From positions 7,087 through 71,086 of the forward strand of contig LCFM01000005.1 in NCBI GenBank assembly GCA_000999025.1: a stretch of DNA of 64,000 nt. The letters are read 5' to 3'. A model generated the notes under the pieces. That model was given only the letters and a program-made list of their open reading frames with translations, had not been told where the DNA came from and did no database searches. The translations under genes and the position numbers were made by a program. Shown piece after piece: positions 455 to 24,344 of this stretch. This DNA is from Parcubacteria group bacterium GW2011_GWA2_43_13. Its GTDB lineage: Bacteria > Patescibacteriota > Patescibacteriia > UBA9629 > GWA2-43-13. How positions within the stretch are numbered: position 1 is the first letter of the stretch; each line of letters begins with the position of its first letter.

Positions 455-2641
455 CTAATCAACTCGGATTTTTCGATCTAAAAAGGGCAGGGTATTGATT
501 GGGATGGTTTGTTTTGCATCTTTTAGTTCAAGTCGGAATCGGATGGTATAAGTGCCTTTAGGCAGTCCTTTGGGCTTGAGGGTAAATTTTAATGTTGCTG
601 TTTTCCCGGGGTCAATGGTTGTGCCTTTATCAAGAGGCAGAGCCGCTACTCTTTTATCAATCCAATCAGAGGAGTCGTAAAATGGGCTGGTTTTTCCTTC
701 AGTATCCTCTACTATCAATATCAATTGTTTTTTTGCCCATTTTTGAGTGCCGGTGTTTTTTATTTTTACTTCAATATTGGTTTTTCGCCATGTATTTTTT
801 GTCGCAGGCGGCATTGAGAGCGTACCTATTTCTGCTGTGTAATCGTTTGGGATGACGTTTATCGGAAGCAACAGCGATCCGCCTGCAATAGGTTCAGGCG
901 ACCCTGTTTGAGGGATGCGTTTCAGTGTGATGAGTAGGCCGTATTCTCCTGGGTTTGCCGGCGCTTTTAATGGGATACTAAATGTCCCTTGGCTGTTTTG
1001 TCCGATCACTGTTTCCATCGGAATGAATCGTCCGTCTGCCACTGACCATGACTCATGCGCAAGTGGAGTGGGTTCTCCTTTTTCATTGGTAACAGAAAGA
1101 AAAGTGGAATTATTCCGCCATTCTCCTGTGCCGGTGTTTGCAAATGTCAGAGTAAGAGAACTTTTTTCATTCGGTTTCAGCCGATTGGGACCTGATGTTG
1201 ATTTCCATACCGCTGTGTATGTATTCTCCTGTTGTTGGGGATTTGACGTGGCGTCAGGCGCGTCTGGGATGTTTTCGGCGATTTCAATGGTTTCGCCGTC
1301 AGGATGAATATCAAGGACTTTTTGTGGCACCGATTGAATCGTATCTTTTTGCGTTAATGGGAAGAGCGTTTGGAATGTGTAATCAGATGCGATGCGAAAT
1401 TTTTTCCTTTCTGAAATCATGTATATTGAATGTGACGCGTCTTTTACTAAGAGTCCATTCTTGAGAGGTACCGGATTCCCGGGATACCCGCTGTTTATTT
1501 CTTCTGCAAACATTTCTTTTGGCGTTCTGTTTGGATAGTTGAGTTTGAGTATAATGTCATCAATAATCGGGTACTTAAATCCGTTTTGCAAAAAGAATAA
1601 TTCCCCAGTTGTTTTATTTTTTGCCACAACGCCTGTCGGGTCTACTGCTGTTTCATCAATAGGAAACCCGTCGCGATAGGGAGCGATATCTTCCGGAAGT
1701 ACGGTTTCTATTTCTTCGGGATTAAATCCGATTTTTCGTAATGCCTCGGGAGAAACGATATGCCGTTTGAAATCATCAACTAAAAGATAAATTTTTCCTG
1801 AACCACTGTCTTTTACAACAGCATAATTTGAAAATTTAATTGGGGTGCTTTCTGGATACGATGCAATAATATCAGCACTCACCTGTATTGCATCTTCAAT
1901 TCGGTTCGTTTGCAGATATGCTGTTTTTGATATGTATTTCCGGCGTTCGCCATTTTGAATTTTCCACAGTGTTCCGTCAGGATCAAGAAGCACTATTCCG
2001 TCAGGATATCTATTCCCTCCAAAGTATCGGTTCCACACTTTCCAAAAAGAATAATTGCCACCAATGCCTGAATCAGAGCCGTGATATGGTGTATAAATAT
2101 ACAGGTTTGCAGTTGCCTGATTTTGAGGAGTTACTTGGTATCCATCAGAGGTGATGGACGGGACGCCGATTTTAAAGCCGAAACGATTGGGCTGGTCTGA
2201 ATAAATACGGAACGTTGTTGCGCCGGCATCTATTTGATTGGCAATACCTCTATATTTTTCATTGCATCGTCCACCAAAACACGAATAGCCCATAGCCCAA
2301 TCAAGCGCATTTTGTGTGGCAGACGCTTTTTCTATGAGCCCTTGCTCATTCTGAAGTTTTGCCAATAAAAATTTTGGTGAAATATTCGTTTCCTGGCTTA
2401 CAAGCCAAATAATTTCTGAGACCTTTTTTATGCCATCGCTGAATGTATCGGTAATGGTTGCTAACATAGATCCTTTTTTTTCAAGAAATGTTTGGATTGC
2501 CATTTGTGAGAGTGCGTGTTTGTCAAATTGATCAAAATCGGAAATGATAAAATTTTTATTAAAAACCGCGGCGTTGACGAACGCAGGGGCAAGAGAGAGT
2601 GCGGTTATAGTAATGGCAAGACAAAAAAAACGCGACTTCAT
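455..2641 (-). CDS. large secreted hypothetical protein with N-terminal signal peptide
   Basis: 728-aa ORF. N-terminus MKSRFFCLAITITALSLAPAFVNA is a Sec signal. Rest is beta-rich and repeat-like; no catalytic motif recognised. Confidence 0.6.
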   Translation of the reverse strand: MKSRFFCLAITITALSLAPAFVNAAVFNKNFIISDFDQFDKHALSQMAIQTFLEKKGSMLATITDTFSDGIKKVSEIIWLVSQETNISPKFLLAKLQNEQGLIEKASATQNALDWAMGYSCFGGRCNEKYRGIANQIDAGATTFRIYSDQPNRFGFKIGVPSITSDGYQVTPQNQATANLYIYTPYHGSDSGIGGNYSFWKVWNRYFGGNRYPDGIVLLDPDGTLWKIQNGERRKYISKTAYLQTNRIEDAIQVSADIIASYPESTPIKFSNYAVVKDSGSGKIYLLVDDFKRHIVSPEALRKIGFNPEEIETVLPEDIAPYRDGFPIDETAVDPTGVVAKNKTTGELFFLQNGFKYPIIDDIILKLNYPNRTPKEMFAEEINSGYPGNPVPLKNGLLVKDASHSIYMISERKKFRIASDYTFQTLFPLTQKDTIQSVPQKVLDIHPDGETIEIAENIPDAPDATSNPQQQENTYTAVWKSTSGPNRLKPNEKSSLTLTFANTGTGEWRNNSTFLSVTNEKGEPTPLAHESWSVADGRFIPMETVIGQNSQGTFSIPLKAPANPGEYGLLITLKRIPQTGSPEPIAGGSLLLPINVIPNDYTAEIGTLSMPPATKNTWRKTNIEVKIKNTGTQKWAKKQLILIVEDTEGKTSPFYDSSDWIDKRVAALPLDKGTTIDPGKTATLKFTLKPKGLPKGTYTIRFRLELKDAKQTIPINTLPFLDRKIRVD

Positions 2642-2729: not shown

Positions 2730-3803
2730 TTATACAAGAAGATTTTCGTATTTTTGCATAACCGTTTCAATAGAGAAGTGTTCTTGTGCGTGTTTTCGCG
2801 CGAGTCCGCCCATGGTTTCCCTCCAATCAGGATGATTGAAAAGGTTAATCACTGCTTGCGCGATCATTTCGCTGTTATGAGGAGGGATAAGAATCCCATG
2901 CTTTGACGGGGTGATGATATCTCGGAGTGGAGGGATATCTGAAGCGATAACAACCCTTTGCGCGGCCATAGCTTCAATTGCTGGCTCCATTGAGGCGAAT
3001 GAATCGTCAGGGCAAAAAGCGAATACAGTAAAATGTTTCATCCAATTTTCACGATGATCTTCTGACCCGACCAATTTAATGTATTCGCGCAGTCCAAGCT
3101 GGGCAACCAGCCATAATATGCGTTGTTTTTCCGGGCCGCTTCCCACAATAACAAGTTGCATATCAGGAATCATTTCTTGTATCAAAGGGATTGCTTTGAT
3201 GATGTATTCAACCCCGCTTCGCTGGTTTAAAGGGGATGCCGTGCCAAGAATAAATCGTTGTTGCTGGTGTGTTGGGACAGAATCCAATGGCAAGGGTTGT
3301 TGTTTGATATGTATGCAGGGAGGGATTATTGAGATATTTTTTTGTCGTATGCCTGTTAACTGCTGGAGAGAAGGGAAGGGGAAGATGCTGTGGGTATTTT
3401 TTGCGTATAATGCATACAGCCATTTCAAAAGTCGCGGAATCGGTTTAGGGAATAGAATGTATGTTGGTATACCGAGCATACGCGCGCAAGGGGCGAAGAG
3501 GATGACGTCGGAACAGGTGGCGCATATCAGCGCGTGCGGAGCGTATCGGATGCGCAGTCGAATGATGCGTATGATATTGATAATAAAAAGGAGCGGGGAA
3601 AAAATGATCCAAACAAGAGAAAGAGATGATGTGAATCTGGGATTGAAAAACATTTTTTTATAGTTTTCGCCGTGATCCGCAGGAGGCGTTTTTGATAAAT
3701 ATACCAGAGCGTGATCTCGTTTTTGAAATTCACGGACTATATACTCAATGTGTTTTTCGTCCTCTTTCATGAGAGTGTCAGTTGCAAGAATAATGCAGTT
3801 CAT
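2730..3803 (-). CDS. glycosyltransferase family 4 (GT1/GT4 fold)
   Basis: C-terminal half has a GT4 signature (EAMAAQRVVIASDIPPLRDII...). Start moved to the ATG at 3803, which forms an ATGA overlap with the stop of the upstream flippase gene. The ORF-track N-terminal extension overlaps that gene. Confidence 0.7.
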   Translation of the reverse strand: MNCIILATDTLMKEDEKHIEYIVREFQKRDHALVYLSKTPPADHGENYKKMFFNPRFTSSLSLVWIIFSPLLFIINIIRIIRLRIRYAPHALICATCSDVILFAPCARMLGIPTYILFPKPIPRLLKWLYALYAKNTHSIFPFPSLQQLTGIRQKNISIIPPCIHIKQQPLPLDSVPTHQQQRFILGTASPLNQRSGVEYIIKAIPLIQEMIPDMQLVIVGSGPEKQRILWLVAQLGLREYIKLVGSEDHRENWMKHFTVFAFCPDDSFASMEPAIEAMAAQRVVIASDIPPLRDIITPSKHGILIPPHNSEMIAQAVINLFNHPDWRETMGGLARKHAQEHFSIETVMQKYENLLV

Positions 3804-5236
3804 AGATGTCGTGTTATGTTTAAAAGATGGTGCGGGATGCGCATGAGGTATATGAACGCGCAATAGAGGGTAGTATAGAGTGCGATTGTCGGGAATAAGC
3901 CAAGGCCGAGCGGTTTGAGAATAAGCGTAATGCCGATTGCTATGAGAAATATGCGCAGTGGATAGTGAAGATGAATAGCGCAGTTCGTTGTGCGTTGTAT
4001 TGTTTTCCACGAGGCAAAAGCAATGCCCGCTTCAGTGAGAATTGTGATAGTGGCCGCGGCGTAATATGAATACAGAGGAATAAAAATAAGATACGCGACA
4101 AGGGCCGACACCGCGATAATGATATACCATACAAGCATACTTTTTTGTTTATTGATACAGATAATCGTTTGCGTGAATGTGGCGCCGAGGAAAATAATCA
4201 TTGTCGCGCTCATGAGCATAACAAAGAGCGTTGAAAGAATATGAAGGTTTTGCGGTTGTGTTAGAAATTCTTTTCCCGCGACAAATTCCATAAAAGGCGA
4301 TGCGATGAGTATGGCTATGCCGATACATGGCGCGGCGATTAAGGATAATAATTGAAACGCCGCCTCGAGCAGTGCGTGGAACGATGGCGTATTACCTTCT
4401 GCCCAGTACGCGGAAAGGCGGGGGATGAATAGTCCCATAACAACAATCGGGATGGTTGTGAGCGTTTCAAGTATGCGGTATGGCACGCCGTACAAACCGA
4501 CATCGCTCATGGGTTTAAATAACGAGAGTATAATGCTGTCTGCTTTAACGTAAATGAGGGTGAAGAGGATGGACAGCGCTATGGGCCATGAAGTTTGTAT
4601 GGTACGAACGCATGCTTGTTTGCTGAAGCGCGGAATAATTGAGGTATATTTTTTTAGGAAAAAGAGATGCATGATCATGGTTGCGCATGATCCAACAATA
4701 AGAGCGACCAGGGATACAATAAGGGCAGATTGATTGTGCGTTTTGAATGCTGTAAAGACGATAACAAGCAGGAGGGTTCTGCCGATGATTTCAGCGTATG
4801 CGGAAAAATGCGTTTTAAAATGTGTTTGAAAGACAGCGCTTGAAAGTTGGGAAACGCTGTTGAATATATTAATGACTGCTGTTAGAAGAATTGCTATTTT
4901 AATGCCAAGCGCGTAGGGGAAGAATAGAATAATAAGAGGCGAGAGGAGGTACCATGCGGCACTGATTGCAATACGAGTGCCCAGTAATTCAGGAAAGTGG
5001 TTTTGGGTATCCTGATGTGGGGTGGAAAGTTCTTTAAGAGCAACGAGGTAAATACCCATATCAGCGATGATGCCGATTGATGTGACGAAAATTGTAATAA
5101 TGTGAAATTTCCCAAAATTATCAGGCCCTAACAGTCGTGTTAATACAAAAAGTGAGCATAAGCCCAATAAGGCATAGATCGCTTTACCGATAATTTGAAT
5201 TGCGCTGTGTACAGCTACTTTTTTAATAAAAGACAT
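3800..5236 (-). CDS. polysaccharide/O-antigen flippase, Wzx-like (MOP superfamily, multi-TM)
   Basis: 478-aa protein with about 12-14 predicted TM helices. N-terminus typical of Wzx/RfbX family. Adjacent to glycosyltransferase. Confidence 0.6.
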   Translation of the reverse strand: MSFIKKVAVHSAIQIIGKAIYALLGLCSLFVLTRLLGPDNFGKFHIITIFVTSIGIIADMGIYLVALKELSTPHQDTQNHFPELLGTRIAISAAWYLLSPLIILFFPYALGIKIAILLTAVINIFNSVSQLSSAVFQTHFKTHFSAYAEIIGRTLLLVIVFTAFKTHNQSALIVSLVALIVGSCATMIMHLFFLKKYTSIIPRFSKQACVRTIQTSWPIALSILFTLIYVKADSIILSLFKPMSDVGLYGVPYRILETLTTIPIVVMGLFIPRLSAYWAEGNTPSFHALLEAAFQLLSLIAAPCIGIAILIASPFMEFVAGKEFLTQPQNLHILSTLFVMLMSATMIIFLGATFTQTIICINKQKSMLVWYIIIAVSALVAYLIFIPLYSYYAAATITILTEAGIAFASWKTIQRTTNCAIHLHYPLRIFLIAIGITLILKPLGLGLFPTIALYTTLYCAFIYLMRIPHHLLNITRHL

Positions 5237-7068: not shown

Positions 7069-8718
7069 ATGCGTTTTGATGATACAAAAATAACAGAAAT
7101 GCTGGTGCGTGAAAATTATGTGACAAAGGAAGATATTGTTCGCGCTGAAAAATCTGCGAAAACGGCCAGAAGTTCAATCATAGAACAGTTGCTTATCAGC
7201 GGATTGGTAACAAAGGATTTGATTGGTCAAGCAGTGGCTGAATCATTTGGTGTTTTGTATGCTGATTTAAATTCCAATCAGCCGATCTGCGAACAGATAA
7301 TGAAAATTCCCGAAGAAACTGCAAGAAAATGTAAGGTTGTGCTTTTTGCTGAAAATAAAAAAGGAATAACAGTTGCTACTGATAATCCTTCTCAAAAAGA
7401 ACTTCGCGCGATACTGCAAGTAATCTTCCCGAAGCAAAAGATTACCATTGCGTATTCGTTGTTAGATGATATTGAGGCATGCTTTAGTTATTATCGAAAA
7501 TCGCTTGAGACCAGATTTTCTAAAATCATTGAAACACAAACGCGCGTGGCGCCGGAAATTATTGAACAAATCATAGCAGATGCCCAGTCATTTCACGCTT
7601 CAGATATTCATTTTGAACCACAGGGCAAGGAGGTGCTGGTCAGGTTTCGAGTAGATGGCGTTTTACAGGAAGCCGGTCGTATCCCGCGCGAGCATTATGA
7701 AAATATTTTAAATCGCATCAAGGTGCAAAGTAGAATGCGCATTGATGAGCATTTTACAGCCCAAGATGGCGCGATGCGACATGATAAAGATGGCACTATT
7801 GTGGACATGAGAGTATCAGTCGTTCCTACTGTTGAAGGCGAGAAAATTGCGCTTCGTATCCTTGCTTCGTATATTCAGGGATTGAGCTTGGCTGACTTGG
7901 GCATTTCTCACGCACATCAATCCATACTCGAAGAAGCCGTCAAAAAACCATTTGGCATGATACTTGTTACCGGTCCAACCGGATCGGGAAAAACCACCAC
8001 GCTGTACGCGTTTTTGAAAATTTTGAATCAGCCGGATGTGAATATTATGACTATTGAGGATCCTGTGGAATATAAGATGTTGGGAGTCAATCAAATTCAA
8101 GTCAACCCGGAGACGAATTTAGTATTTGCGCGTGGGTTGCGTTCTATTGTGCGTCAAGATCCTGATGTTATTTTGGTCGGGGAGATTCGTGACGAGGAAA
8201 CCGCGGAAATAGCTGTAAATGCCGCGCTGACCGGTCATCTTTTACTTTCAACATTTCACGCGAACGATGCGGCAACCACTATTCCGCGTCTTTTGGATAT
8301 GAATATTGAACCGTTCCTTCTTGCCTCCACACTTGAGGTTATCGTAGCTCAACGGTTGGTAAGAAAAATTTGCGAACAATGCCGTCATAGTACAACAGTT
8401 GCCCCTTCCAATCTTGTGATGCCGCCGAAGGTGGCGAGTAAGTTTTTTGGGAAAAAAGCAGTTATCTTATATCAGGGAAAGGGGTGCCCGATGTGTGGAG
8501 GAACTGGCTACAAAGGAAGGATAGCTCTTTTTGAATGTATTCAGGTAACTCCTGAAATGCAGGATTTAATTTTAACACGACCGTCTACTCAAGAGATATG
8601 GCGTTTAGCTTGCGAACAGGGGGTTGTCTCTCTTTTTGAAGATGGCATTGAAAAAGTGAAAAATGGCATAACCACACTTGAAGAGCTCAAACGGGTAGCA
8701 GAGGTTCCCAAGCTCTGA
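7069..8718 (+). CDS. pilB: type IV pilus assembly ATPase PilB / GspE family
   Basis: Walker A GPTGSGKTT, Asp/His boxes, C-terminal tetracysteine CEQC...CPMCGGTGYKGR zinc motif, GspE N-domain. Confidence 0.9.
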   Translation: MRFDDTKITEMLVRENYVTKEDIVRAEKSAKTARSSIIEQLLISGLVTKDLIGQAVAESFGVLYADLNSNQPICEQIMKIPEETARKCKVVLFAENKKGITVATDNPSQKELRAILQVIFPKQKITIAYSLLDDIEACFSYYRKSLETRFSKIIETQTRVAPEIIEQIIADAQSFHASDIHFEPQGKEVLVRFRVDGVLQEAGRIPREHYENILNRIKVQSRMRIDEHFTAQDGAMRHDKDGTIVDMRVSVVPTVEGEKIALRILASYIQGLSLADLGISHAHQSILEEAVKKPFGMILVTGPTGSGKTTTLYAFLKILNQPDVNIMTIEDPVEYKMLGVNQIQVNPETNLVFARGLRSIVRQDPDVILVGEIRDEETAEIAVNAALTGHLLLSTFHANDAATTIPRLLDMNIEPFLLASTLEVIVAQRLVRKICEQCRHSTTVAPSNLVMPPKVASKFFGKKAVILYQGKGCPMCGGTGYKGRIALFECIQVTPEMQDLILTRPSTQEIWRLACEQGVVSLFEDGIEKVKNGITTLEELKRVAEVPKL

Positions 8719-8760: not shown

Positions 8761-9858
8761 ATGGAACGTCGCAAAGTAAAAAAACACACATCACGGATCG
8801 CTACTTTCGGATTGCGCTCTGATCGTGATTATTGTATTGAAAATTTAAGCATGCTTGTTTCCTCCGGCATGACAATATTGGATGCCTTTGATGCGGTTTC
8901 TGCTGATCTTCGTTCAAGGAGAATGAAGTGGATTGTGAGTGTTATGAAAGAAGGGATCGAGTCCGGCTCTCCATTGTGGAGAGTTTTAGATAGCGCGCGC
9001 CTGTTTCCCGAACATACCATTTCCCTTGTACGCATAGGAGAAGAGTCGGGAAAACTTTCGGAAAATTTGCGTGTCATTAGCTTACAGCAGGCAAAGGAGC
9101 GTGTTTTTCGATCAAAAATTCAATCAGCCATGATGTATCCGATGTTTGTCCTTTTACTCACAGTTGTTATTGGCATTGGTATAGCATGGTTTGTCTTGCC
9201 TAAACTTGCTATCGTGTTTTCTCAATTGCATGTGCAATTGCCATTGATTACTAAAATACTCATACAGGGCGGTAAATTTTTGAATGAGCGTGGAGTGGTT
9301 GTTGTGCCAATAATCATTGCAAGTTTTGTGTTTTTTTTATGTGTCTTTTTTTATTTCCCAAAAACAAAAAGGATTGGTCAATCTTTGCTCTTTTCCGTGC
9401 CGGGTATTAAGCGGCTTATTCAAGAAGTTGAGATAGCTCGGTTTGGTTATCTTTTAGGAACGCTTCTTCAGGCAGGTGTTATTATTACTCAATCCATATC
9501 TTCGCTTTCTCAAGCAACCGCATTCCCGCGCTATAAAAAATTTTATGAATACCTTGAGCGCAGTATTGAAGATGGAAATTCATTCCAAAAGAGCTTTGCG
9601 CAGTATCGCGCAGTGAATCGTCTTATTCCGACTCCGATTCAACAGTTGATTGTTACGGCAGAGCGATCTGGTAATCTATCGGAAACACTTTTGTCTGTGA
9701 GTGAAACGTTTGAAGGAAAAACAGAAACGACTACGAAAAATCTTACTGTTATTCTTGAGCCGATTTTGCTTGTGATCGTTTGGCTTGGGGTTGTTGCGGT
9801 TGCTTTGGCGGTTATTTTGCCAATCTACGGTCTCATTGGCGGATTTAAAACGCAGTGA
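8761..9858 (+). CDS. pilC: type IV pilus inner-membrane platform protein PilC / GspF family
   Basis: 365 aa with two T2SSF-like repeats and 3 TM segments. Immediately downstream of pilB. Confidence 0.85.
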   Translation: MERRKVKKHTSRIATFGLRSDRDYCIENLSMLVSSGMTILDAFDAVSADLRSRRMKWIVSVMKEGIESGSPLWRVLDSARLFPEHTISLVRIGEESGKLSENLRVISLQQAKERVFRSKIQSAMMYPMFVLLLTVVIGIGIAWFVLPKLAIVFSQLHVQLPLITKILIQGGKFLNERGVVVVPIIIASFVFFLCVFFYFPKTKRIGQSLLFSVPGIKRLIQEVEIARFGYLLGTLLQAGVIITQSISSLSQATAFPRYKKFYEYLERSIEDGNSFQKSFAQYRAVNRLIPTPIQQLIVTAERSGNLSETLLSVSETFEGKTETTTKNLTVILEPILLVIVWLGVVAVALAVILPIYGLIGGFKTQ

Positions 9859-9899: not shown

Positions 9900-10370
9900 A
9901 TGTTTCAATTGTTACACGCTACACACTATAAGCTACAAAACAAGAGAGGTTTTACGTTAATAGAAATCATACTTTCCATAGCTACGATTGGAATTATTGC
10001 CGGTATTTCTATGCCTCTGTATGGCTCATTTCAGGTTCGAAATGATCTTGATATTGCCGTTTCCTCCATCGCCCAATCATCGCGTCGAGCGCAAGCGCTT
10101 TCTCAGGCGGTTGATGGCGATACAAGTTGGGGTGTGAATATCCAAAGCGGGAGTATGACAGTTTTTAAAGGGGCAAGTTACGCCGTCCGCGATAGCAGTT
10201 TTGACGAAATAGTTGATGTGCCAACAAGTATTTCGCCCTCAGGTATGTCGGAAGTGATTTTTACAAAATTGACAGGCCTCCCTCAAACCACCGGCACATT
10301 TACTCTTACTTCAAATGCCAATGAAACGAGAACAATTACAATCAACGCGAAAGGCATGGTCAGCTATTAG
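9900..10370 (+). CDS. prepilin-type minor pilin (pseudopilin)
   Basis: Class III signal ...KRGFTLIEIILSIATIGIIAGI with Gly-1 and Glu+5. Confidence 0.75.
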   Translation: MFQLLHATHYKLQNKRGFTLIEIILSIATIGIIAGISMPLYGSFQVRNDLDIAVSSIAQSSRRAQALSQAVDGDTSWGVNIQSGSMTVFKGASYAVRDSSFDEIVDVPTSISPSGMSEVIFTKLTGLPQTTGTFTLTSNANETRTITINAKGMVSY

Positions 10371-11790
10371 GGTGCATTCATTTACTTCGGGCTTCTATAG
10401 AGGGTTCTCTTTGGTAGAGGTGATCCTCTCCAGTGCGGTTTTTGTATTGTTGATCACCGCGCTTGTTGGTGCGTATTTGTATGGGCAGGAAGCAACAGTA
10501 TTTGCCGGTAATCGCGCTCGATCAGTCATGCTGGCTGAAGAAGGATTAGAAGCTGTGCGCAATATCCGTGATGCCGGCTTTTCAAACCTTACTGGTGGAA
10601 TATTTGGGTTGATTATCTCTGATAATCAATGGGATCTATCCGGATCCTCAGATGTGAGCGATATATTTACGCGGCAATTAGTGATTTCTGCCGTTGATAC
10701 AGGACGTATACATGCCACGTCAAACGTAACGTGGCAACAAAATCCACAGAGGAATGGCGAGGTTTCATTGATAACGAGATTTAGCGATTGGGCAAGAAAT
10801 TTTGGCAACTGGGGCGTGGCAACGCAAGAGGCAACGCTTGATTTATCTACAACTGATAACGGTAATGAGATAGCTCTGTATACAACAGGGTCTGCAACAT
10901 ATGCGATTGTGGTAAGAACGCGCGGATTAGCATCTGAATTGTACGTTATAGATGTTTCTATTCCTGCAAGTCCTGTAGTGGTCAGCAATGTAGAAATAGG
11001 AGCAACGGTAAATGATGTTGCGGTATGTGGGAACTACGCAGTCGTAGCTACTGTGGCCAATTCAGGCGAATTGCAAGTTATTAATTTAACCACACCAAGC
11101 GCTCCTTTGATTGCGAGCGTTTTTAACCTTACCGGTGGGGCTAACGCGCTTTCGGTTGTCTGTACAGGCACAACCGTATTTCTTGGTCGGGCCGCGAGCG
11201 CGCAGTATGAACTTTATGCAATCACTATTGCCGACCCTCTTGCACCGAGTATTCTTTCTTCGCTTGAATTAGGAACTAATGCGGATGCGGCTAAAGTTGT
11301 TCTTGCCCAGAACGGTCAGTATCTTTATATCGCTTCGCCTGTGAATTCGGGTGAATTGTTTATCGTCTCGACCAGTAGCCCGTCGAGTATTTTTCTTACA
11401 AGCACGTTTGATGCTTCAGGCGGGTCTGACGGCACTGCGGTAACGGCATTTTCAACGTACGCAGTACTTGGCAGAGCTGATGGAAATATTCTTGTTATAG
11501 ACGTTTCCATTCCTGCTGGCCCCACTCTTATTAGCAGTGCTTTAGATATTGGGGGTAATATTCAAGACATGGCAATGGGTATTGGCGATTCTTCTGTGTT
11601 CATTGCGAGTAATACCGCCGACACGCCGACATTTATTATTGATGTCATTACGCCGGCATCCCCGGCGATTTTGGGATCAGTCGCTTATGGAGAGGATACA
11701 AAAGGAATCGTGTGGGATTATAATCTGAACCGCGCTTTTATCGCCGGAACCTCTAATACTGCCGAATTTGCGGTTTTAACATCGAATTAA
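10315..11790 (+). CDS. pseudopilin with C-terminal LVIVD-type beta-propeller repeat domain (putative pilus-associated adhesin)
   Basis: N-terminus ...YRGFSLVEVILSSAVFVLLITALVGA is a prepilin signal. A more likely start is the GTG at 10372, directly after the previous stop. The C-terminal approximately 330 aa are about 7 repeats of an approximately 45-aa unit containing (L/V)(Y/V)VIDVSIPASP-like motifs. Confidence 0.7.
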   Translation: MPMKREQLQSTRKAWSAIRVHSFTSGFYRGFSLVEVILSSAVFVLLITALVGAYLYGQEATVFAGNRARSVMLAEEGLEAVRNIRDAGFSNLTGGIFGLIISDNQWDLSGSSDVSDIFTRQLVISAVDTGRIHATSNVTWQQNPQRNGEVSLITRFSDWARNFGNWGVATQEATLDLSTTDNGNEIALYTTGSATYAIVVRTRGLASELYVIDVSIPASPVVVSNVEIGATVNDVAVCGNYAVVATVANSGELQVINLTTPSAPLIASVFNLTGGANALSVVCTGTTVFLGRAASAQYELYAITIADPLAPSILSSLELGTNADAAKVVLAQNGQYLYIASPVNSGELFIVSTSSPSSIFLTSTFDASGGSDGTAVTAFSTYAVLGRADGNILVIDVSIPAGPTLISSALDIGGNIQDMAMGIGDSSVFIASNTADTPTFIIDVITPASPAILGSVAYGEDTKGIVWDYNLNRAFIAGTSNTAEFAVLTSN

Positions 11791-11794
11791 TGCT

Positions 11795-12322
11795 ATGAGG
11801 ACTGTTGCTGAATACCATAAAAAATTATCACAATCAGGTTTTACACTCATAGAACTTCTTCTTTACATCAGTATTACTTCCATCATTCTTCTTGCTGTTT
11901 CGGCTTTTCTTTCCGTACTGTTAGAATCCCGCATCAAAAATCAAACCATTGCCGAGGTTGAACAGCAGGGTTTGCACATCATGAACATCATTACTCAAGT
12001 CGCGCGAAATGCAGAGGCAATCACGGGGCCTTTACCAAGTGCGAGTGCTCCATTTTTGACACTCGATGTTGCTGTGAGTGCGAATGATCCGACTGTTTTT
12101 GACCTTTCTGGCGGGACTATTCGCATTACCGAAGGAGTTGGGAGCGCAGCGTCACTGACTAACGCGCGTGTCATTGCTTCTGCTTTTAATATTCAAAATT
12201 TATCTCGGCCACGTACTCCAGGCACTATTCGTATTCAATTCACGCTCACGCATGTAAACCCTGAAGGCAGGAATGAATACAATGTTTCAAAGACATTTAT
12301 CGGATCGGCAACTCTACGATAA
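11795..12322 (+). CDS. prepilin-type minor pilin (pseudopilin)
   Basis: SQSGFTLIELLLYISITSIILLAV class III signal. Confidence 0.75.
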   Translation: MRTVAEYHKKLSQSGFTLIELLLYISITSIILLAVSAFLSVLLESRIKNQTIAEVEQQGLHIMNIITQVARNAEAITGPLPSASAPFLTLDVAVSANDPTVFDLSGGTIRITEGVGSAASLTNARVIASAFNIQNLSRPRTPGTIRIQFTLTHVNPEGRNEYNVSKTFIGSATLR

Positions 12323-12371
12323 CCACAACGTGCGGAGCGAGTGTAGAACTGCAAATGAAAGGACTACTATT

Positions 12372-12809
12372 ATGAATTGGCAAATTATAAACTGCACACA
12401 GCGCATCCCATTATGGGACACTCGTCATGGTGGGTATATCACCTTGGTGAGTGTTTTAGTTGTCGGCGCTGTCGGGGTCGCTATCTCAACCTCTCTTCTG
12501 TTGCTCGGACTTGGGTCATCGCGAACAAGTTTTGCGGTTGAACAATCAAGCCAAGCAAAGGCACTTGCCAATGCGTGTTCTGAAGAGGCGCTGAAACAAA
12601 TCAGGATGTCTGCGCCATTTACCGGAAGTGGCAATGTTGTGCTTGGCAAAGGTGCATGTAGTTATACGGTTACAATTCAAGGAGGACATAATCGCATCAT
12701 TACCGCAGTAGGCACAGTAGGCACTATCGTAAGAAAAGTAAAAATTATTATAGACCAGATTGTTCCAGCTATTCAGGTTGTATCATGGCAGGAGGTTGCT
12801 GATTTTTAA
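12372..12809 (+). CDS. PilX-like minor pilin / pilus assembly protein
   Basis: Start moved to ATG 12372 (MNWQ...). Hydrophobic N-terminal helix HGGYITLVSVLVVGAVGVAIS resembles PilX-type pseudopilins that lack Glu+5. Confidence 0.5.
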   Translation: MNWQIINCTQRIPLWDTRHGGYITLVSVLVVGAVGVAISTSLLLLGLGSSRTSFAVEQSSQAKALANACSEEALKQIRMSAPFTGSGNVVLGKGACSYTVTIQGGHNRIITAVGTVGTIVRKVKIIIDQIVPAIQVVSWQEVADF

Positions 12810-12863
12810 AAAAATAAAAATGTGATATACTATCAATGGTGGTTAATTAACAAGAGGTATCTT

Positions 12864-13328
12864 ATGAGATATATACATGCTGTACATTACAAGGATCAAC
12901 CCGATAAAGGGTTCACTTTATTAGAAATTCTTTTAGTGGTTGCCGCTATCGCGATATTGGCCGGCATTGTTATTTTAGCGATCAATCCTAACAAGCAACT
13001 TGGTGACACCCGCAATGCCCAACGCCGAGCAGATGTGAATACTATTTTGAACGCTGTATATCAATATACAATTGATAATAATGGAACGCTTCCTACTTCA
13101 ATTACTACTTCGCAGACAGAAGTTTGCAAAACAGGCGGCACATGTACCGGGCTGATTGACTTAGGTGTTGTGACAACAGATGAAAAATATCTTATTTCAA
13201 TTCCAACCGATCCGACCGGATCTTCTACGAATGGCGCTGGGTATGAAATTAAAAAGAGCGCTAATGGGCGCGTGACAGTCGTTGCGCCGGATGCTGAACA
13301 AAGTGCGACAATTACGGTAACGCGGTAG
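12864..13328 (+). CDS. type IV major pilin (PilA-like)
   Basis: Start moved to ATG 12864. [26 protein letters not shown] class III signal. Small (154 aa). Last gene of the cluster and followed by a strong terminator. Confidence 0.75.
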
Positions 13329-13628: not shown

Positions 13629-14483
13629 GATCGCGATATGTAACCTTCATTCGCACCCCACTGGACATGCGCTTCTCGCGCATCCAGCGAGTCCTTATAC
13701 ATTGATACTCTCCTTAAGGCGTTGGATTTTTTTACATCCATTATCAGTAAGATGTTGTTTATCGGCGATGAGAAAGGCGGCTTTACGAAAAAGAAGATAA
13801 TCTTTCCGTTTTTTTGCCTGTAGGGGATGCTTGTCAAAGAATGGAATAATATGTTCAACGATATCTTTAATATTTGAAACCTTTAGTTTGACGTGAGGTT
13901 TCCATTGAGCATATCGTTGATACTCCAATCTATAGAGATTTCCGCATCCTAATGTTTTTTGTATCGCTTGTAACACAGCACGATCATCTTCTTTGACTTC
14001 TATTTCAAAGAGGAGACGGACTTCTGATTTTCGGCGAAGTGTTTTGTGTTTGGCAATACTGATACAAAAACATCCTTCTCCATCTACGAACCCAACAATA
14101 TAATCAGGAGAAATGTGTAAGGTTTGTTCCTTCGTTTTTGGCATACTTATAAAGTATACCTCAAAACTACTATGAACGCAGCTGACTTCCTTTTAACCCA
14201 TCATTGGTTAACACGTTAAAAGGATCTCCCTGGGTTAGTGTATGAGCTATTTCCGACATTCCAAACGGGTTTTTAATGCTTACTTCCCATAGGTACACGC
14301 TATGATCGTAAACACCCTTATCGTGTTTGGGCTGTCATTTGTGTATAGAACCCTTCAGACATTCCCTTACGGGATATGTCCTGTTCGCAACTATTCCGCA
14401 CTCACTTTGGGGAATACCCCAAAGTGAGTGCGGGACAAGGATTTTCACCTTGTAGTTCATACGCCTGCCAGGCGCATTTAATT
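13629..14483 (-). mobile_element. intron in 16S rRNA (group-I-like) carrying a homing endonuclease gene, inserted between GGGCGGTG and TGTACAAG (E. coli approximately 1391)
   Basis: Conserved 16S sequence stops at 13628 and resumes at 14484. The intervening 855 bp contain the LAGLIDADG ORF. Confidence 0.8.
13695..14144 (-). CDS. LAGLIDADG-family homing endonuclease (single-motif)
   Basis: 149 aa. DYIVGFVDGEGCF motif (LAGLIDADG variant) near the N-terminus. Located wholly inside the 16S intron. Confidence 0.8.
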   Translation of the reverse strand: MPKTKEQTLHISPDYIVGFVDGEGCFCISIAKHKTLRRKSEVRLLFEIEVKEDDRAVLQAIQKTLGCGNLYRLEYQRYAQWKPHVKLKVSNIKDIVEHIIPFFDKHPLQAKKRKDYLLFRKAAFLIADKQHLTDNGCKKIQRLKESINV

Positions 14484-14546
14484 TGTACAAGACCCGAGAA
14501 CGTATTCAACGCGCCGTGGCTGATACGCGTTTACTAGCGATTCCGG

Positions 14547-14585
<39 letters not shown>

Positions 14586-14790
14586 GGTAGTTTTAAGGGA
14601 TTAGCTCCACCTCGCGGTTTGGCAACCCGTTGTACTACCCATTGTAGCGCGTGTGTCGCCCAGGACGTAAGAGCCATGCTGATTTGACGTCATCCCCACC
14701 TTCCTCCCTGTTAACCAGGGCGGTCTATTGTGGAAAGTAACACAATATAGGGGTTGCGCTCGTTTTCCGACTTAACGGTACACTTCACAG

Positions 14791-14821
<31 letters not shown>

Positions 14822-14915
14822 ATAGCACCCTCGAAGGCTTCCCGATTTCTCGGGATATGCAGCTATATGTCAAGCCCTGGTAAGGTTCCTCGCTTATCAT
14901 CGAATTAAACCACAC

Positions 14916-14985
<70 letters not shown>

Positions 14986-15793
14986 GGTACTTAACGCGTT
15001 AGCTTGGTTATAAGCACCTCTGGGAGGGTCGATACTCCCAAAAGCTAGTACCCATCGTTTACAGCGTGGACTACTGGGGTATCTAATCCCATTCGCTCCC
15101 CACGCTTTCGTCCATGAGTGTCAGAACTGTTCTAGCAAGCTGCCTTCGCCTTTGGTGTTCCGGCTGATATTAACGCATTTTACCGCTACACCAGCCGTTC
15201 CGCTTGCCTCTCCCAGTCTCGAGTTTGTCAGTTTTCCCCGCACTCTTATGGTTGAGCCACAAGATTTAACGAGAAACTTGACAAACAACCTGCGGACGCT
15301 TTACGCCCAATAAATCCGGATAACGCTTGAGGTCTCTGTATTACCGCTGCTGCTGGCACAGAGTTAGCAACCTCTTATTCGTAAGATACCTTCAGCCGAA
15401 GCTTATTCTCTTACAAAAGCCGTTTACAACCCGAAGGCCTTCTTCCGGCACGCGGCATTGCTCCTTCACGCTTTCGCGCATTGAGGAAGATTCTCGACTG
15501 CAGCCTCCCGTAGGAGTCTGGGCAGTTCTCAGTCCCAGTGAGGCGGGTCATGCTCTCACACCCGCTATCCGTCAGAGCCTTGGTGAGCTTTTACCTCACC
15601 AACAAGCTGATGGACCATAGGCCCCTCCTTTACCGCCGAAGCTTTCTTTTTCTTTCATATGAAAGAAAAACGTATGCGGTATTAGCCCGCCTTTCGGCAG
15701 GTTATTCCCCAGTAAAGGGTAGGTTACCAGTGTGTTACTCACCCGTTTGCCACTTGGCCTTGCGGCCACGTTCGACTTGCATGCCTAAGACAT

Positions 15794-15830
<37 letters not shown>

Positions 15831-16007
15831 ATAAAAGATTGTGATGCTTTTGTACACTATAGGCGCACCACGAACCTGAAAAATGTTGTATTTGGAATTG
15901 ACGTTGAGTTGGTCTATTACATTTCAGTTTTCAATGAACCGATACTCTTTTAACTAAAAACACAGAGGTCTTCTGTGCGTGATTTTTAGCTATGTTAAGA
16001 GCAGTAC

Positions 16008-22973: not shown

Positions 22974-24344
22974 ATGACACCGGAACAACTCTGGCAAGCA
23001 ACGCTTGGTGAGCTCGAAGTATCACTCTCTCGCGCAAATTTTACAACGTGGTTTAAAAACACGTTTATTGCTGATATCTCCCAGCAGAAAATTATCGTCG
23101 CGGTTCCGAACGCATTTACAAAGTCATGGCTTGAGAATAAATATCACAAAGCGATTATAAAAGCATTACAACACTTAACCGACAATTCGGTACGAGAGGT
23201 ATTGTATCAAATTGTTACTCACGAAAAACAGGGGGGTATAAAGCATGATGATCCTGTTGCGCAAGAAGCGTTGTCGCCGTATGTTCGAACCGCACATTCG
23301 AATACGGCTCATGCAGAGTCGTCAGGCGGTTCAAAATATACCTTTGATAATTTTATTGTTGGAAAGGGAAACGAACTTGCCCATGCGGCAAGCTTTGCTG
23401 TTGCAGAAGTGCCTGGAAAAAAATACAATCCGTTATTTCTGTATGGCGGAGTGGGGCTTGGGAAGACACATTTAATGAGGGCAATATCTCATCATGTAAA
23501 GCTCCGCAATCCTCAAGCCAATGTACTGTATGTTACGTCTGAAAAATTTACCAATGATTTTATTCAAGCGTTGAAAGAGGGCAAAACAAAGGAGTTTAAG
23601 CTTATTTATAGAAGCCCTGATGTACTGTTGATAGATGATATCCAATTTATTACTGGCAAAGAGCAGACGCAAGAGGAATTTTTTCATACCTTTGAGGCGC
23701 TTCACCAAGCAGATAAACAAATTGTGATGACCTCGGATCGTCCTCCAAAAGCGATAGGCGCGTTACCTGACCGTCTGCTTTCTCGATTTGAATGGGGCAT
23801 GATTGCTGATATTTCATTTCCTGATCTTGAAACGCGGATCGCGATACTGACGTCAAAATGCGCGGAAAAGGGGTGTATTATTTCTCAAGAGGTTTTGGAA
23901 TACGTCGCTTCGAATATCCAGCATAATATTCGGGAACTTGAAGGTGCGTTGAATAAAATTATTGCGCATCACCAGTTATTTAATCACACTCCGACGATTG
24001 ATACGACAAAAGAGATTATTTCGTCATTGGCGCTTAATCCCACGAAAGGAGCGGTAACTCCGCGAAAGCTCATAGAGATCGTGGCGCGGTATTACGATGT
24101 TCCTATTGATGGATTAGTTGGTTCGAGTAGGAAAAAAGAACTTGTTGGTCCGCGTCAGATCGCGATGTATCTTTTAAGGGAAGAAGTGGATGCCTCATAT
24201 CCGGCAATTGGGCAGGATATGGGTGGTAGGGATCATACAACTGCAATGCATGCGTATCAAAAAATTGCTGAAGCATTGCATAAAGATGATCGTTTAAAAC
24301 AAGAAATTGCAAATATTACCCAGTTGCTGTATCAGGGAGCATAG
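22974..24344 (+). CDS. dnaA: chromosomal replication initiator protein DnaA
   Basis: AAA+ Walker A GGVGLGKTHL, Walker B LLIDDIQF, sensor motifs, C-terminal DNA-binding domain. Confidence 0.95.
   Translation: MTPEQLWQATLGELEVSLSRANFTTWFKNTFIADISQQKIIVAVPNAFTKSWLENKYHKAIIKALQHLTDNSVREVLYQIVTHEKQGGIKHDDPVAQEALSPYVRTAHSNTAHAESSGGSKYTFDNFIVGKGNELAHAASFAVAEVPGKKYNPLFLYGGVGLGKTHLMRAISHHVKLRNPQANVLYVTSEKFTNDFIQALKEGKTKEFKLIYRSPDVLLIDDIQFITGKEQTQEEFFHTFEALHQADKQIVMTSDRPPKAIGALPDRLLSRFEWGMIADISFPDLETRIAILTSKCAEKGCIISQEVLEYVASNIQHNIRELEGALNKIIAHHQLFNHTPTIDTTKEIISSLALNPTKGAVTPRKLIEIVARYYDVPIDGLVGSSRKKELVGPRQIAMYLLREEVDASYPAIGQDMGGRDHTTAMHAYQKIAEALHKDDRLKQEIANITQLLYQGA

What the first reader, a model, noticed from the sequence alone, without database searches (positions are those of the whole stretch)
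10315..11790. Minor pilin fused to a multi-blade LVIVD-type beta-propeller: candidate pilus adhesin
The protein begins with a genuine prepilin leader (RGFSLVEV..., Gly-1/Glu+5). It then continues for about 330 aa of roughly 45-aa repeats carrying (Y/L)VIDVSIPASP, ILVIDVSIPAGP and FIIDVITPASP motifs, which match LVIVD beta-propeller repeats. Pseudopilins are normally 120-180 aa. A propeller at the tip of a type IV pilus would be a natural host- or surface-binding module in a small-genome, possibly episymbiotic, bacterium.
Basis: partly seen in the sequence, partly recalled or inferred. Interest (0 to 1): 0.6.

Follow-up and report, generated by a model that had tools for sequence, protein, structure and literature searches.

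The report
Pilus subunit carrying a seven-bladed propeller
This gene from an ultrasmall groundwater bacterium (Parcubacteria/CPR) encodes a type IV pilus subunit fused to a seven-bladed LVIVD beta-propeller, most likely a pilus-borne binding module; it is a well-supported but uncharacterised member of the known class of "modular pilins".

Summary
ORF 10315-11790 (+) has a prepilin leader (RG|FSLVE, with Glu+5 invariant in 120 homologues), a 51-residue alpha-1 helix and a pilin beta-sheet. Seven repeats of about 46 aa follow. They match Pfam LVIVD (37.2 bits, cutoff 20.2) and fold in AlphaFold2 (pLDDT 92.8) into a seven-bladed propeller.

The gene is the second of five pilin genes in an operon: PilB, PilC, pilin, this gene, pilin, a Glu5-less pilin, then the major pilin. 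That order holds in 78 of 80 related Patescibacteria loci.

The pilin part is a conserved scaffold. At the same junction (after Trp140), other genomes carry no module, a 56-aa six-cysteine knob, a 130-aa beta module, a 415-455-aa module, fn3 or laminin-G lectin domains. These classes are interleaved in the pilin-module tree.

The adhesin reading is therefore supported by architecture, context and precedent. The precedent is TM7x PilX2, an RCC1-propeller pilin needed for host binding. Tip location, processing and ligand remain inferred.

It is not new in kind. The exact protein is already deposited as "Outer membrane adhesin like protein". The N_methyl-LVIVD architecture is also listed, unanalysed, in Raynaud et al. 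2021.

The parts
10315..11790 (+). Full ORF of the modular minor pilin. It is 491 aa as deposited. Alternative starts are ATG 10321 and GTG 10372, the latter giving 472 aa. The stop codon is at 11788-11790.
   Evidence: The protein is 100% identical to P0001, 'Outer membrane adhesin like protein [Parcubacteria group bacterium GW2011_GWA2_43_13]'.
10372..10404 (+). Minimal class III (prepilin) leader, MHSFTSGFYRG. The predicted PilD cleavage site lies after Gly at 10402-10404. The mature protein starts at Phe 10405-10407, and Glu+5 is at 10417-10419.
   Evidence: Read directly from the sequence. E16 is invariant in 120 homologues. Among the related loci, -1 is G/A in all 81 modular-pilin sequences scored and +5 is E in 71 of 81. 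The exceptions are mostly errors of my motif finder.
10411..10563 (+). Alpha-1 helix (aa 14-64). This is the hydrophobic assembly helix of type IV pilins.
   Evidence: AF2 models, with pLDDT 90-98 over this segment.
10597..10785 (+). [quoted passage not shown] It carries the conserved AEEGLEA..RNIRD..WQQN signature and ends at conserved Trp140.
   Evidence: Mean column entropy is 1.25 bits here against 1.83 bits for the propeller.
10786..10821 (+). Short linker (aa 139-150) and module junction. Alternative C-terminal modules in other genomes begin directly after Trp140.
10810..11787 (+). Seven-bladed LVIVD beta-propeller (aa 147-472). The repeat units lie at 10810-10974, 10975-11106, 11107-11247, 11248-11391, 11392-11523, 11524-11664 and 11665-11787.
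   Evidence: Pfam LVIVD scores 37.2 bits against a cutoff of 20.2. AF2 predicts 28 strands with pLDDT 95-98. Foldseek matches 7-bladed propellers at TM 0.74-0.82 normalised to the target.
7069..8718 (+). PilB-type assembly ATPase. First gene of the operon.
   Evidence: Pfam T2SSE E 1.1e-120, plus MshEN. Syntenic in the related loci.
8761..9858 (+). PilC-type platform protein.
   Evidence: Pfam T2SSF E 4.6e-42. Syntenic.
9900..10370 (+). Minor pilin 1 (KRG|FTLIE). GspH/FimU-like.
   Evidence: N_methyl 27.2 bits; GspH domain E 0.001. E5 is present in 75 of 79 orthologues.
11795..12322 (+). Minor pilin 3 (QSG|FTLIE).
   Evidence: N_methyl 29 bits. E5 is present in 73 of 74 orthologues.
12372..12809 (+). 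Pilin-like protein 4, which lacks Glu5 (HGG|YITLV). The probable start is ATG 12372 inside ORF 12273-12809. The missing Glu5 is a GspK/PilX-like trait.
   Evidence: Position +5 is L/I/V in 61 of 71 orthologues and never E.
12822..13328 (+). Probable major pilin (DKG|FTLLE). The likely start is ATG 12864.
   Evidence: N_methyl 25.8 bits. NCBIfam GspG 1.7e-8. It is the most conserved pilin of the operon, at up to 87% identity, and is present in 1-3 copies in the related loci.

Best explanation
The gene encodes a bimodular ('modular') type IV minor pilin.

Shown here:
- It has a class III signal peptide and a canonical pilin module: a roughly 50-residue alpha-1 helix plus a beta-sheet.
- A linker of about 10 residues joins this to a seven-bladed LVIVD beta-propeller.
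- It is the second pilin gene in the core Patescibacteria type IV pilus operon (PilB, PilC, H-like pilin, this gene, pilin, Glu5-less pilin, major pilin).
- Its pilin module is a conserved scaffold that carries different C-terminal modules in different genomes.

Inferred:
- The prepilin peptidase cleaves after Gly-1.
- The alpha-1 helix and Glu5 dock the protein into the minor-pilin priming complex. That complex starts filament assembly and so ends up at the pilus tip.
- The propeller is thereby held out as a binding module for a host-cell or surface ligand. Cycles of pilus extension and retraction then establish contact.
- In function it would stand in for PilY1, which this operon lacks, with the propeller fused directly to a pilin rather than docked onto the minor pilins.
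For: Architecture. AF2 gives pLDDT 92.8, a helix at 14-64, a sheet at 76-138 and 7 blades.

Pilin identity: Glu+5 is invariant in 120 homologues. Two homologues are labelled PilV by JGI and several are labelled prepilin-type by NCBI.

Operon: PilB/PilC and four further pilin genes are tightly packed around the gene. The same gene order is found in a complete Moraniibacteriota genome and in 78 of 80 loci from many CPR lineages.

Tip-complex analogy: one operon pilin never has Glu5 (0 of 71), as in GspK/PilX, while the others nearly always do.

Binding rather than catalysis:
- Propeller residues conserved at 80% or more are periodic (E, P..P, G, Y, R), with no His or Cys.
- Indels concentrate in one loop class.
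- The propeller is more variable than the pilin module, at 1.83 against 1.25 bits.

Module swapping on one scaffold: the C-terminus may be absent, a 6-Cys knob, a 130-aa beta module, the LVIVD propeller, a 415-455-aa module, fn3 or Laminin_G_3. The nearest neighbour by pilin module shares the C-terminal class in only 31 of 77 cases. Proteins of about 200 aa share up to 77% identity with this pilin module.

Precedent: TM7x PilX2, a minor pilin with a heptabladed propeller, is needed for normal host binding (PMC11623550). S. sanguinis PilB and PilC are modular pilin adhesins (PMC8179133).
Against: - No experiment bears on this protein or on any LVIVD domain. The published literature calls LVIVD a motif of unknown function.
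- Pfam N_methyl and TIGR02532 are below their cutoffs for this sequence.
- The pilin module could not be assigned to the GspI/PilV class. The best structural hit, EpsI, has E 0.15, and the NCBIfam XpsI hit covers only the helix. The tip-complex placement therefore rests on gene order and analogy.
- PilD, PilT and PilM/N/O are not in this window.
- The ligand is unknown.
- Incorporation along the shaft is not excluded.
Confidence: 0.72

Rival explanations
1. The pilus is a competence-type (Com-like) filament, and the propeller is a receptor for extracellular DNA or nucleotides. It would serve nucleic-acid scavenging rather than attachment to a host.
For: A profile search of PDB sequences gave weak hits to YncE-family propellers (E 0.044-0.049). 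YncE is reported to bind ssDNA (own knowledge). Modular pilins that bind DNA exist, such as ComZ, cited in PMC8179133. The operon in the window has PilB and PilC but no retraction ATPase.
Against: The PDB hits are not significant. The same scaffold carries lectin-type (Laminin_G_3), fn3, Cys-knob and other unrelated modules. That pattern fits variable targets better than a universal ligand such as DNA. The propeller surface is variable and no conserved basic patch was identified.
Confidence: 0.08
2. The propeller is an enzyme presented on the pilus, for example a hydrolase that attacks the host envelope. It would not be a passive adhesin.
For: Foldseek's second-ranked PDB hit is the 7-bladed phosphotriesterase Sb-PTE, 5hrm (E 3e-10). 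Two of 23 homologues weakly match SBP56/methanethiol-oxidase-type propellers. Modular pilins with peptidase modules are listed in PMC8179133.
Against: There is no conserved His or Cys, and only one conserved Asp, in the propeller across 120 homologues. All conserved positions are periodic repeat positions. The structural hits are generic propellers at 10-13% identity.
Confidence: 0.05
3. The protein is not polymerised into a filament. The class III signal peptide merely anchors or exports a cell-surface propeller protein, as with archaeal pilin-like signal peptides on non-pilus proteins. Alternatively, it acts only as an assembly primer or plug for pilus biogenesis.
For: The depositor's annotation is a generic 'Outer membrane adhesin like protein'. 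The same propeller type occurs in giant non-pilin surface proteins of 2,000-6,900 aa. PilY1 is also required for biogenesis (PMC7541494 abstract).
Against: Glu5, the residue used for subunit-subunit docking in filaments, is invariant. The full pilin globular module is conserved more strongly than the propeller. The gene has a fixed position among minor pilins next to PilB/PilC in 78 of 80 loci. Pilin-only versions of the same protein exist.
Confidence: 0.1

Closest known systems
Modular type IV pilins (Raynaud et al. 2021, PMC8179133): S. sanguinis PilB (pilin + vWA) and PilC (pilin + lectin)
   Same: A small N-terminal pilin module is joined by a short linker to a bulky module that is not specific to pili. 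Both are encoded among the minor pilins and predicted to be tip-exposed adhesins. That paper's Dataset S1 already lists IPR012902 (N_methyl) + IPR013211 (LVIVD) architectures, about 30 proteins by my count of its rows, and mentions a Falkowbacteria pilin with 12 LVIVD motifs. IPR013211 = LVIVD was confirmed in PMC10210494.
   Different: The module here is an LVIVD propeller. The paper calls it a 'motif of unknown function' and no structural or functional data exist for it. The organism is an uncultivated Parcubacteria-group bacterium.
PilX2 of Nanosynbacter lyticus TM7x (Saccharibacteria), PMC11623550
   Same: [quoted passage not shown] PilX2 deletion roughly halves host binding without abolishing the filament. 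This is the best functional precedent.
   Different: The PilX2 propeller has RCC1 repeats, and PilX2 was not predicted to have a PilD signal peptide. This protein has LVIVD repeats, no RCC1 Pfam hit, and a canonical G|FxxxE leader.
PilY1/PilC tip adhesin of type IVa pili
   Same: Both present a seven-bladed propeller at the pilus together with a set of four minor pilins. The gene sits in the minor-pilin cluster. Both have adhesin and possibly priming roles (PMC7541494 abstract; PMC8179133 discussion).
   Different: PilY1 is not a pilin; it docks non-covalently onto the minor pilins. No PilY1-type Pfam domain was detected here. In this protein the propeller is covalently fused to a pilin.
GspH-I-J-K / FimU-PilV-W-X minor pilin sets
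   Same: There are four minor pilins upstream of the major pilin. The first has a GspH-domain hit and the fourth lacks Glu5, like GspK/PilX. This gene occupies the GspI/PilV position, and two homologues carry JGI's PilV label.
   Different: No significant sequence or structure match to GspI/PilV was found. GspI and PilV have no C-terminal module.
LVIVD-repeat cell-surface proteins (Pfam PF08309; Adindla et al. 2004, PMC2447325)
   Same: It has the same repeat family above the Pfam threshold, about 45 aa per repeat with four strands each, and a predicted propeller.
   Different: Most LVIVD proteins are large multi-domain surface proteins. Many of the best profile hits are 2,000-6,900 aa with up to 19 matched stretches. 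Here a single propeller is grafted onto a pilin.

Membership tests
Type IV pilin (class III signal peptide proteins) | Gly (or Ala) at -1, a hydrophobic residue at +1 and Glu at +5, followed by about 20 hydrophobic residues | tested here: met
   The sequence reads ...YRG|FSLVEVILSSAVFVLLITALVGA. E+5 is invariant in 120 homologues.
Type IV pilin (class III signal peptide proteins) | Score above the curated cutoff of Pfam N_methyl (PF07963) or TIGR02532 | tested here: not met
   The scores are 17.2 against 21.2 bits and 14.3 against 16.3 bits. The match is at the correct position, and 13 of 23 homologues match at E<=0.01. These short models often miss divergent pilins, so the motif row above is the more direct test.
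Type IV pilin (class III signal peptide proteins) | Lollipop fold: an extended alpha-1 helix of about 50 residues packed against a C-terminal antiparallel beta-sheet | tested here: met
   AF2 predicts a helix at 14-64/65 and six strands at 76-138, with pLDDT 91-93. This is a prediction only.
Type IV pilin (class III signal peptide proteins) | Encoded with type IV filament machinery (PilB-type ATPase, PilC-type platform) | tested here: met
   The gene lies in the same operon, 1.6 kb downstream of PilB/PilC. This is conserved in 78 of 80 loci.
Type IV pilin (class III signal peptide proteins) | Cleavage and N-methylation by the prepilin peptidase, and incorporation into filaments | not testable with these tools
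   This needs biochemistry or mass spectrometry. No PilD gene lies in the window.
LVIVD repeat family (PF08309) | Pfam score above the gathering threshold, with tandem repeats of about 42-45 aa | tested here: met
   The score is 37.2 against 20.2 bits, with 3 stretches. There are seven repeats of 41-55 aa. All 23 homologues scanned match.
LVIVD repeat family (PF08309) | Repeats of four beta-strands that assemble into a beta-propeller | tested here: met
   AF2 predicts 28 strands in 7 blades at pLDDT 95-98. Foldseek gives TM 0.74-0.82 to 7-bladed propellers. This is a prediction only.
Modular pilins (sensu Raynaud et al. 2021) | [quoted passage not shown] | tested here: met
   The N_methyl + LVIVD architecture is listed in their Dataset S1.
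PilY1/PilC adhesins | A C-terminal PilY1-type propeller domain (Pfam Neisseria_PilC / IPR008707) | tested here: not met
   No such Pfam hit was found at E<=1. No PilY1 structure appeared among the top 50 Foldseek PDB hits.
PilY1/PilC adhesins | A non-pilin protein, lacking a class III signal peptide, that docks onto minor pilins | tested here: not met
   This protein is itself a pilin.
GspI / PilV-type core minor pilin | Significant sequence or structure match to GspI/PilV | tested here: inconclusive
GspI / PilV-type core minor pilin | Gene position between the H-like and J/K-like minor pilins | tested here: met
   The order is GspH-like pilin, this gene, pilin, Glu5-less pilin, major pilin.
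TM7x PilX2-type propeller pilin | An RCC1-repeat heptabladed propeller on a minor pilin | tested here: not met
   The fold class (7 blades on a pilin) is the same, but no RCC1 Pfam hit was found. The repeats are LVIVD.

The most novel reading that the evidence does not exclude
The second minor-pilin slot of the conserved Patescibacteria type IV pilus operon may act as a hot-swappable adaptor. One conserved pilin scaffold, at up to 77% identity across variants, has unrelated C-terminal modules exchanged at a fixed junction directly after Trp140. The modules seen are none, a 6-Cys knob, a 130-aa beta module, the LVIVD propeller, a 415-455-aa module, fn3 and lectin domains. The exchange would occur repeatedly and between lineages. 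If so, the slot would work as the host-range or target-specificity cassette of these episymbionts, much like the receptor-binding-protein cassettes of phages. The LVIVD propeller in this window would be one allele of that cassette.
Probability: 0.35. Interest if true: 0.65.

Novelty: new member of a known kind. Interest (0 to 1): 0.4.

Why it matters
How uncultivated CPR/Patescibacteria recognise and attach to their hosts is largely unknown. Type IV pili are the leading candidates, and the only genetic data come from Saccharibacteria. This protein family gives a concrete, widespread and well-folded candidate recognition module for Parcubacteria-type lineages: a soluble propeller of about 325 aa that could be expressed and screened against cell envelopes or glycans.

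The wider pattern found here is a conserved pilin scaffold with interchangeable C-terminal modules in a fixed operon slot. It suggests a simple genomic marker for comparing target specificity across thousands of MAGs. It would also give the LVIVD repeat, currently of unknown function, a first functional context.

Tried and rejected
- Sequence search of the PDB with the family profile found nothing better than E 0.0085 (plexin, YncE). No solved relative exists.
- phmmer of the neighbouring pilins against the PDB matched only N-terminal helices of major pilins. It gave no H/J/K assignment.
- Foldseek of the pilin-only model against the PDB gave no significant hit, with EpsI at E 0.15.
- Foldseek of the whole model against the PDB and BFVD returned only generic propellers: G-beta, beta-TrCP, DDB1, Sb-PTE, and viral WD40, RCC1 or tail-fibre-like proteins. 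These were at 9-18% identity and gave no functional lead.
- The 2026 'Pam pilus' CPR preprint describes a different system, based on donor-strand exchange. It is not relevant.
- The promoter and terminator scan gave fewer promoter-like sites than shuffled sequence and no clear terminators. It was not used.
- My first clustering of C-terminal modules by BLAST single linkage merged unrelated classes, apparently through residual pilin-end/linker sequence. I discarded it and inspected the sequences directly.
- The start codon could not be settled between ATG 10315/10321 and GTG 10372.
- An enzymatic role was rejected as the main reading because no catalytic-type residues are conserved.
Full report
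**What is there**

ORF 10315-11790 (+) encodes 491 aa. Its N-terminus reads ...FTSGFYRG|FSLVEVILSSAVFVLLITALVGA, a class III (prepilin) signal with Gly-1, Phe+1 and Glu+5.

The upstream pilin gene (9900-10370) stops at TAG 10368-10370. The start could therefore be the ATG at 10315 or 10321, overlapping that gene by 56 or 50 nt. It could also be the GTG at 10372, directly after the stop. Homologues show similar long N-terminal peptides (MK.EQ..S..KAW). In the one locus where I had called genes (L001), the caller also placed an overlapping start about 50 nt upstream. That conservation could still come from the overlapping upstream reading frame. Every option keeps the leader. I number residues from GTG 10372 (472 aa).

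**Is it real**

- Pfam LVIVD (PF08309) matches at E 1.8e-9, 37.2 bits against a cutoff of 20.2, with three stretches.
- Pfam N_methyl is below its cutoff (17.2 against 21.2 bits) but sits exactly on the leader. TIGR02532 is likewise sub-threshold.
- A search of 5.8 billion proteins found the identical protein. It is deposited as 'Outer membrane adhesin like protein [Parcubacteria group bacterium GW2011_GWA2_43_13]'.
- The same search gave at least 286 relatives. The 120 listed are nearly all 450-500 aa (one is 523) and cover 86-100% of the query, mostly 96-100%, at 36-70% identity. Those with a source-given name come from Patescibacteria or unclassified bacteria. Some carry source names such as 'PilV' or 'prepilin-type N-terminal cleavage/methylation domain-containing protein'.
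- In a 120-sequence alignment, Glu+5 is invariant and the whole N-terminal region is conserved. This rules out a start downstream of the leader.
- All 23 homologues scanned match LVIVD (best 1.7e-37). Of these, 18 match Beta_propel and 13 match N_methyl.

**Structure**

AlphaFold2 with the 120-sequence alignment gives mean pLDDT 92.8 and pTM 0.79. It predicts an alpha-1 helix at 14-64, six strands at 76-138, a short linker, and then 28 strands between 151 and 470. These form seven four-stranded blades, matching seven sequence repeats of 41-55 aa.

Foldseek against the PDB returns only generic seven-bladed propellers. G-beta and beta-TrCP give TM 0.55-0.82 on the target, and Sb-PTE 5hrm also appears, all at 10-13% identity. 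A family-profile search of PDB sequences finds nothing below E 0.008. No relative has a solved structure.

**Context**

The gene lies in a tight operon:

| Coordinates | Product |
|---|---|
| 7069-8718 | PilB-type ATPase |
| 8761-9858 | PilC-type platform |
| 9900-10370 | Pilin 1 (N_methyl, weak GspH domain) |
| 10315-11790 | This gene |
| 11795-12322 | Pilin 3 |
| about 12372-12809 | Pilin-like protein |
| 12822-13328 | GspG-like, probably the major pilin |

A complete Moraniibacteriota genome has the same order. A scan of one genome per species returned 80 loci from many CPR lineages. The lineages include Uhr-, Moranii-, Jackson-, Doudna-, Kerfeld-, Komeili-, Staskawicz-, Berkel-, Dojka-, Gracilibacteria, Paceibacterota, WWE3 and Saccharimonadales. 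tblastn of the window's operon proteins shows the same gene order in 78 of the 80.

In the orthologues, pilins 1, 3 and 5 have Glu5 in 75 of 79, 73 of 74 and 49 of 53 cases. The fourth protein never does (0 of 71, with L/I/V instead). By established knowledge, lack of Glu5 is the hallmark of GspK/PilX, the subunit that caps the minor-pilin tip complex. The set therefore looks like an H-I-J-K + G arrangement with this gene in the I/PilV position. That assignment rests on gene order and weak hits only.

**A wider pattern**

The genome scan produced two kinds of match: full-length, or only aa 10-140. I extracted the ORFs to compare them. The same pilin module (AEEGLEA..RNIRD..WQQN, ending ..TNW) occurs with several C-termini:

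| Protein length, from the start of the match (aa) | C-terminal part |
|---|---|
| 133-147 | None |
| about 190 | About 56 aa with six cysteines |
| about 260 | About 130-aa beta-rich module; also the first part of the ~400-aa forms |
| 452-485 | LVIVD propeller (32 loci) |
| 548-590 | 415-455-aa module (9 loci; only a weak FG-GAP hint) |
| 505 | fn3 |
| 733 | Larger LVIVD region |
| 1,524 | Two Laminin_G_3 lectin domains plus DUF4082 |

All variants diverge directly after Trp140. By pilin-module identity, the nearest neighbour has the same C-terminal class in only 31 of 77 cases, and the classes are interleaved in a neighbour-joining tree. Searching with the pilin module alone finds proteins of about 200 aa at up to 77% identity. 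That exceeds its identity to most propeller-bearing homologues.

The sample is biased, because it came from a pattern-based scan of species representatives, and the trees are short. The simplest reading is still repeated module exchange or loss on a conserved scaffold.

**Function**

The pilin module is more conserved than the propeller (1.25 against 1.83 bits mean column entropy). Propeller positions conserved at 80% or more are periodic repeat determinants. In each blade these are Glu before the LxVxD strand, P..P after it, and Gly, Tyr and Arg. No His or Cys is conserved and only one Asp is. Insertions concentrate in the loop between the first and second strands of each repeat. This fits a rigid scaffold with variable binding loops, and does not fit an enzyme.

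Two published cases serve as precedent:
- In Saccharibacteria TM7x the largest minor pilins carry C-terminal domains. PilX2, with a heptabladed RCC1 propeller, is needed for normal host binding but not for filament formation (PMC11623550).
- S. sanguinis PilB and PilC are modular pilin adhesins, proposed to sit at the tip (PMC8179133).

My best explanation follows from this. The protein is probably processed by PilD. It then enters the minor-pilin priming complex through alpha-1 and Glu5, ends up at the pilus tip, and presents the propeller for attachment. These steps are inferred, not shown.

**Comparison and novelty**

The protein meets the defining features of a type IV pilin (motif, fold, context), although the short HMMs are sub-threshold. 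It also meets those of the LVIVD family and of 'modular pilins'.

It is not a PilY1 family member, having no PilY1 domain and being itself a pilin, though it plausibly works like one. It is not the RCC1 type of TM7x PilX2.

The architecture is already in the literature as a table entry. Dataset S1 of Raynaud et al. lists IPR012902 + IPR013211 in about 30 proteins, and the text mentions a Falkowbacteria pilin with 12 such motifs 'of unknown function'. IPR013211 is LVIVD. No paper in the searchable library combines LVIVD with pilins in any analysis.

A profile search of 1.84 billion representatives gives 17,634 hits at E<=1e-30. Many are giant multi-propeller proteins. About 55 of the top 150 are single-propeller pilins of 453-492 aa, and some are pilins with two or more propellers.

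This is therefore a new, uncharacterised member of a known kind, and the protein itself is already deposited. The module-swapping pattern in a fixed operon slot is the part I could not find described.

**Verdict**

Interest is moderate.

Noticed in passing
window 13695-14144 (-), next to 16S rRNA 14449-15836 (-): A LAGLIDADG homing-endonuclease ORF (Pfam E 3.4e-25) lies about 300 nt downstream of the 3' end of a complete 16S rRNA match (model positions 1-1533). It is outside the aligned rRNA, and no 23S follows in the window. A sub-threshold group II intron D1-D4 hit sits at 14127-14223 (-). Whether this is a free-standing endonuclease, an intron remnant or part of an interrupted spacer is unclear.
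   Followed up: partly
window 14449-15836 (-): The 16S rRNA match spans all 1,533 model positions in only 1,388 nt. The gene therefore seems to lack about 145 nt of the bacterial consensus.
   Followed up: no
window 24356-26023 (+): A second PilB-type ATPase (T2SSE, E 1.9e-120) is encoded directly after dnaA (22974-24344). It is followed by a glycosyltransferase and an O-antigen-ligase-like protein, with no pilin genes beside it.
   Followed up: no
L026, L034, L038 and about 100 proteins (P0267 onward): The commonest close relatives of the pilin module (up to 77% identity) are proteins of about 200 aa. Their C-terminus is a roughly 56-aa six-cysteine motif (..SC.DYA..GY..G.CR.N...C.N..E.YL.GGD..C......DTCCA.P) with no Pfam match. 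It may be a small disulfide-knotted tip module.
   Followed up: partly
L031, L054, L056, L061, L064, L065, L068, L075, L077 (match at about 6001 in each): Nine loci carry the same pilin scaffold fused to a mutually related 415-455-aa module. Pfam gives only a weak FG-GAP hit (E 0.007), so this may be a different propeller.
   Followed up: partly
L049 and L050 (both on contig JAUIFI010000001.1); L056 4248-4640 and 6001-6390; L033 4474-6948: One genome has two complete copies of the operon with different module sizes (733 aa and 460 aa). A Falkowbacteria locus has two modular pilins in tandem. One locus has about 370 aa inserted between the pilin module and the propeller.
   Followed up: no
proteins P0121-P0266: The same propeller type fills giant proteins of 2,000-6,900 aa, with up to 19 matched stretches. 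The origin and role of these proteins were not examined.
   Followed up: no
L005, L015-L017, L027, L033, L037, L038, L043, L060, L062: These loci have the typical CPR pilus operon but come from MAGs titled 'uncultured Gammaproteobacteria', 'Bdellovibrionales', 'Cyanobacteria UBA9579' or 'Weeksellaceae'. The likely causes are mislabelled bins or contaminating contigs.
   Followed up: no
window 10315-10370: The 5' end of the ORF overlaps the 3' end of the upstream pilin gene by up to 56 nt. The peptide encoded there (MK.EQ..S..KAW) recurs in homologues. It is unresolved whether this is a real long leader or a by-product of conservation in the other reading frame.
   Followed up: partly
window 455-2641 (-): This ORF encodes a 728-aa protein with CARDB and Ig-like domain hits. 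It is probably another surface protein, next to polysaccharide-synthesis genes (2730-5236).
   Followed up: no
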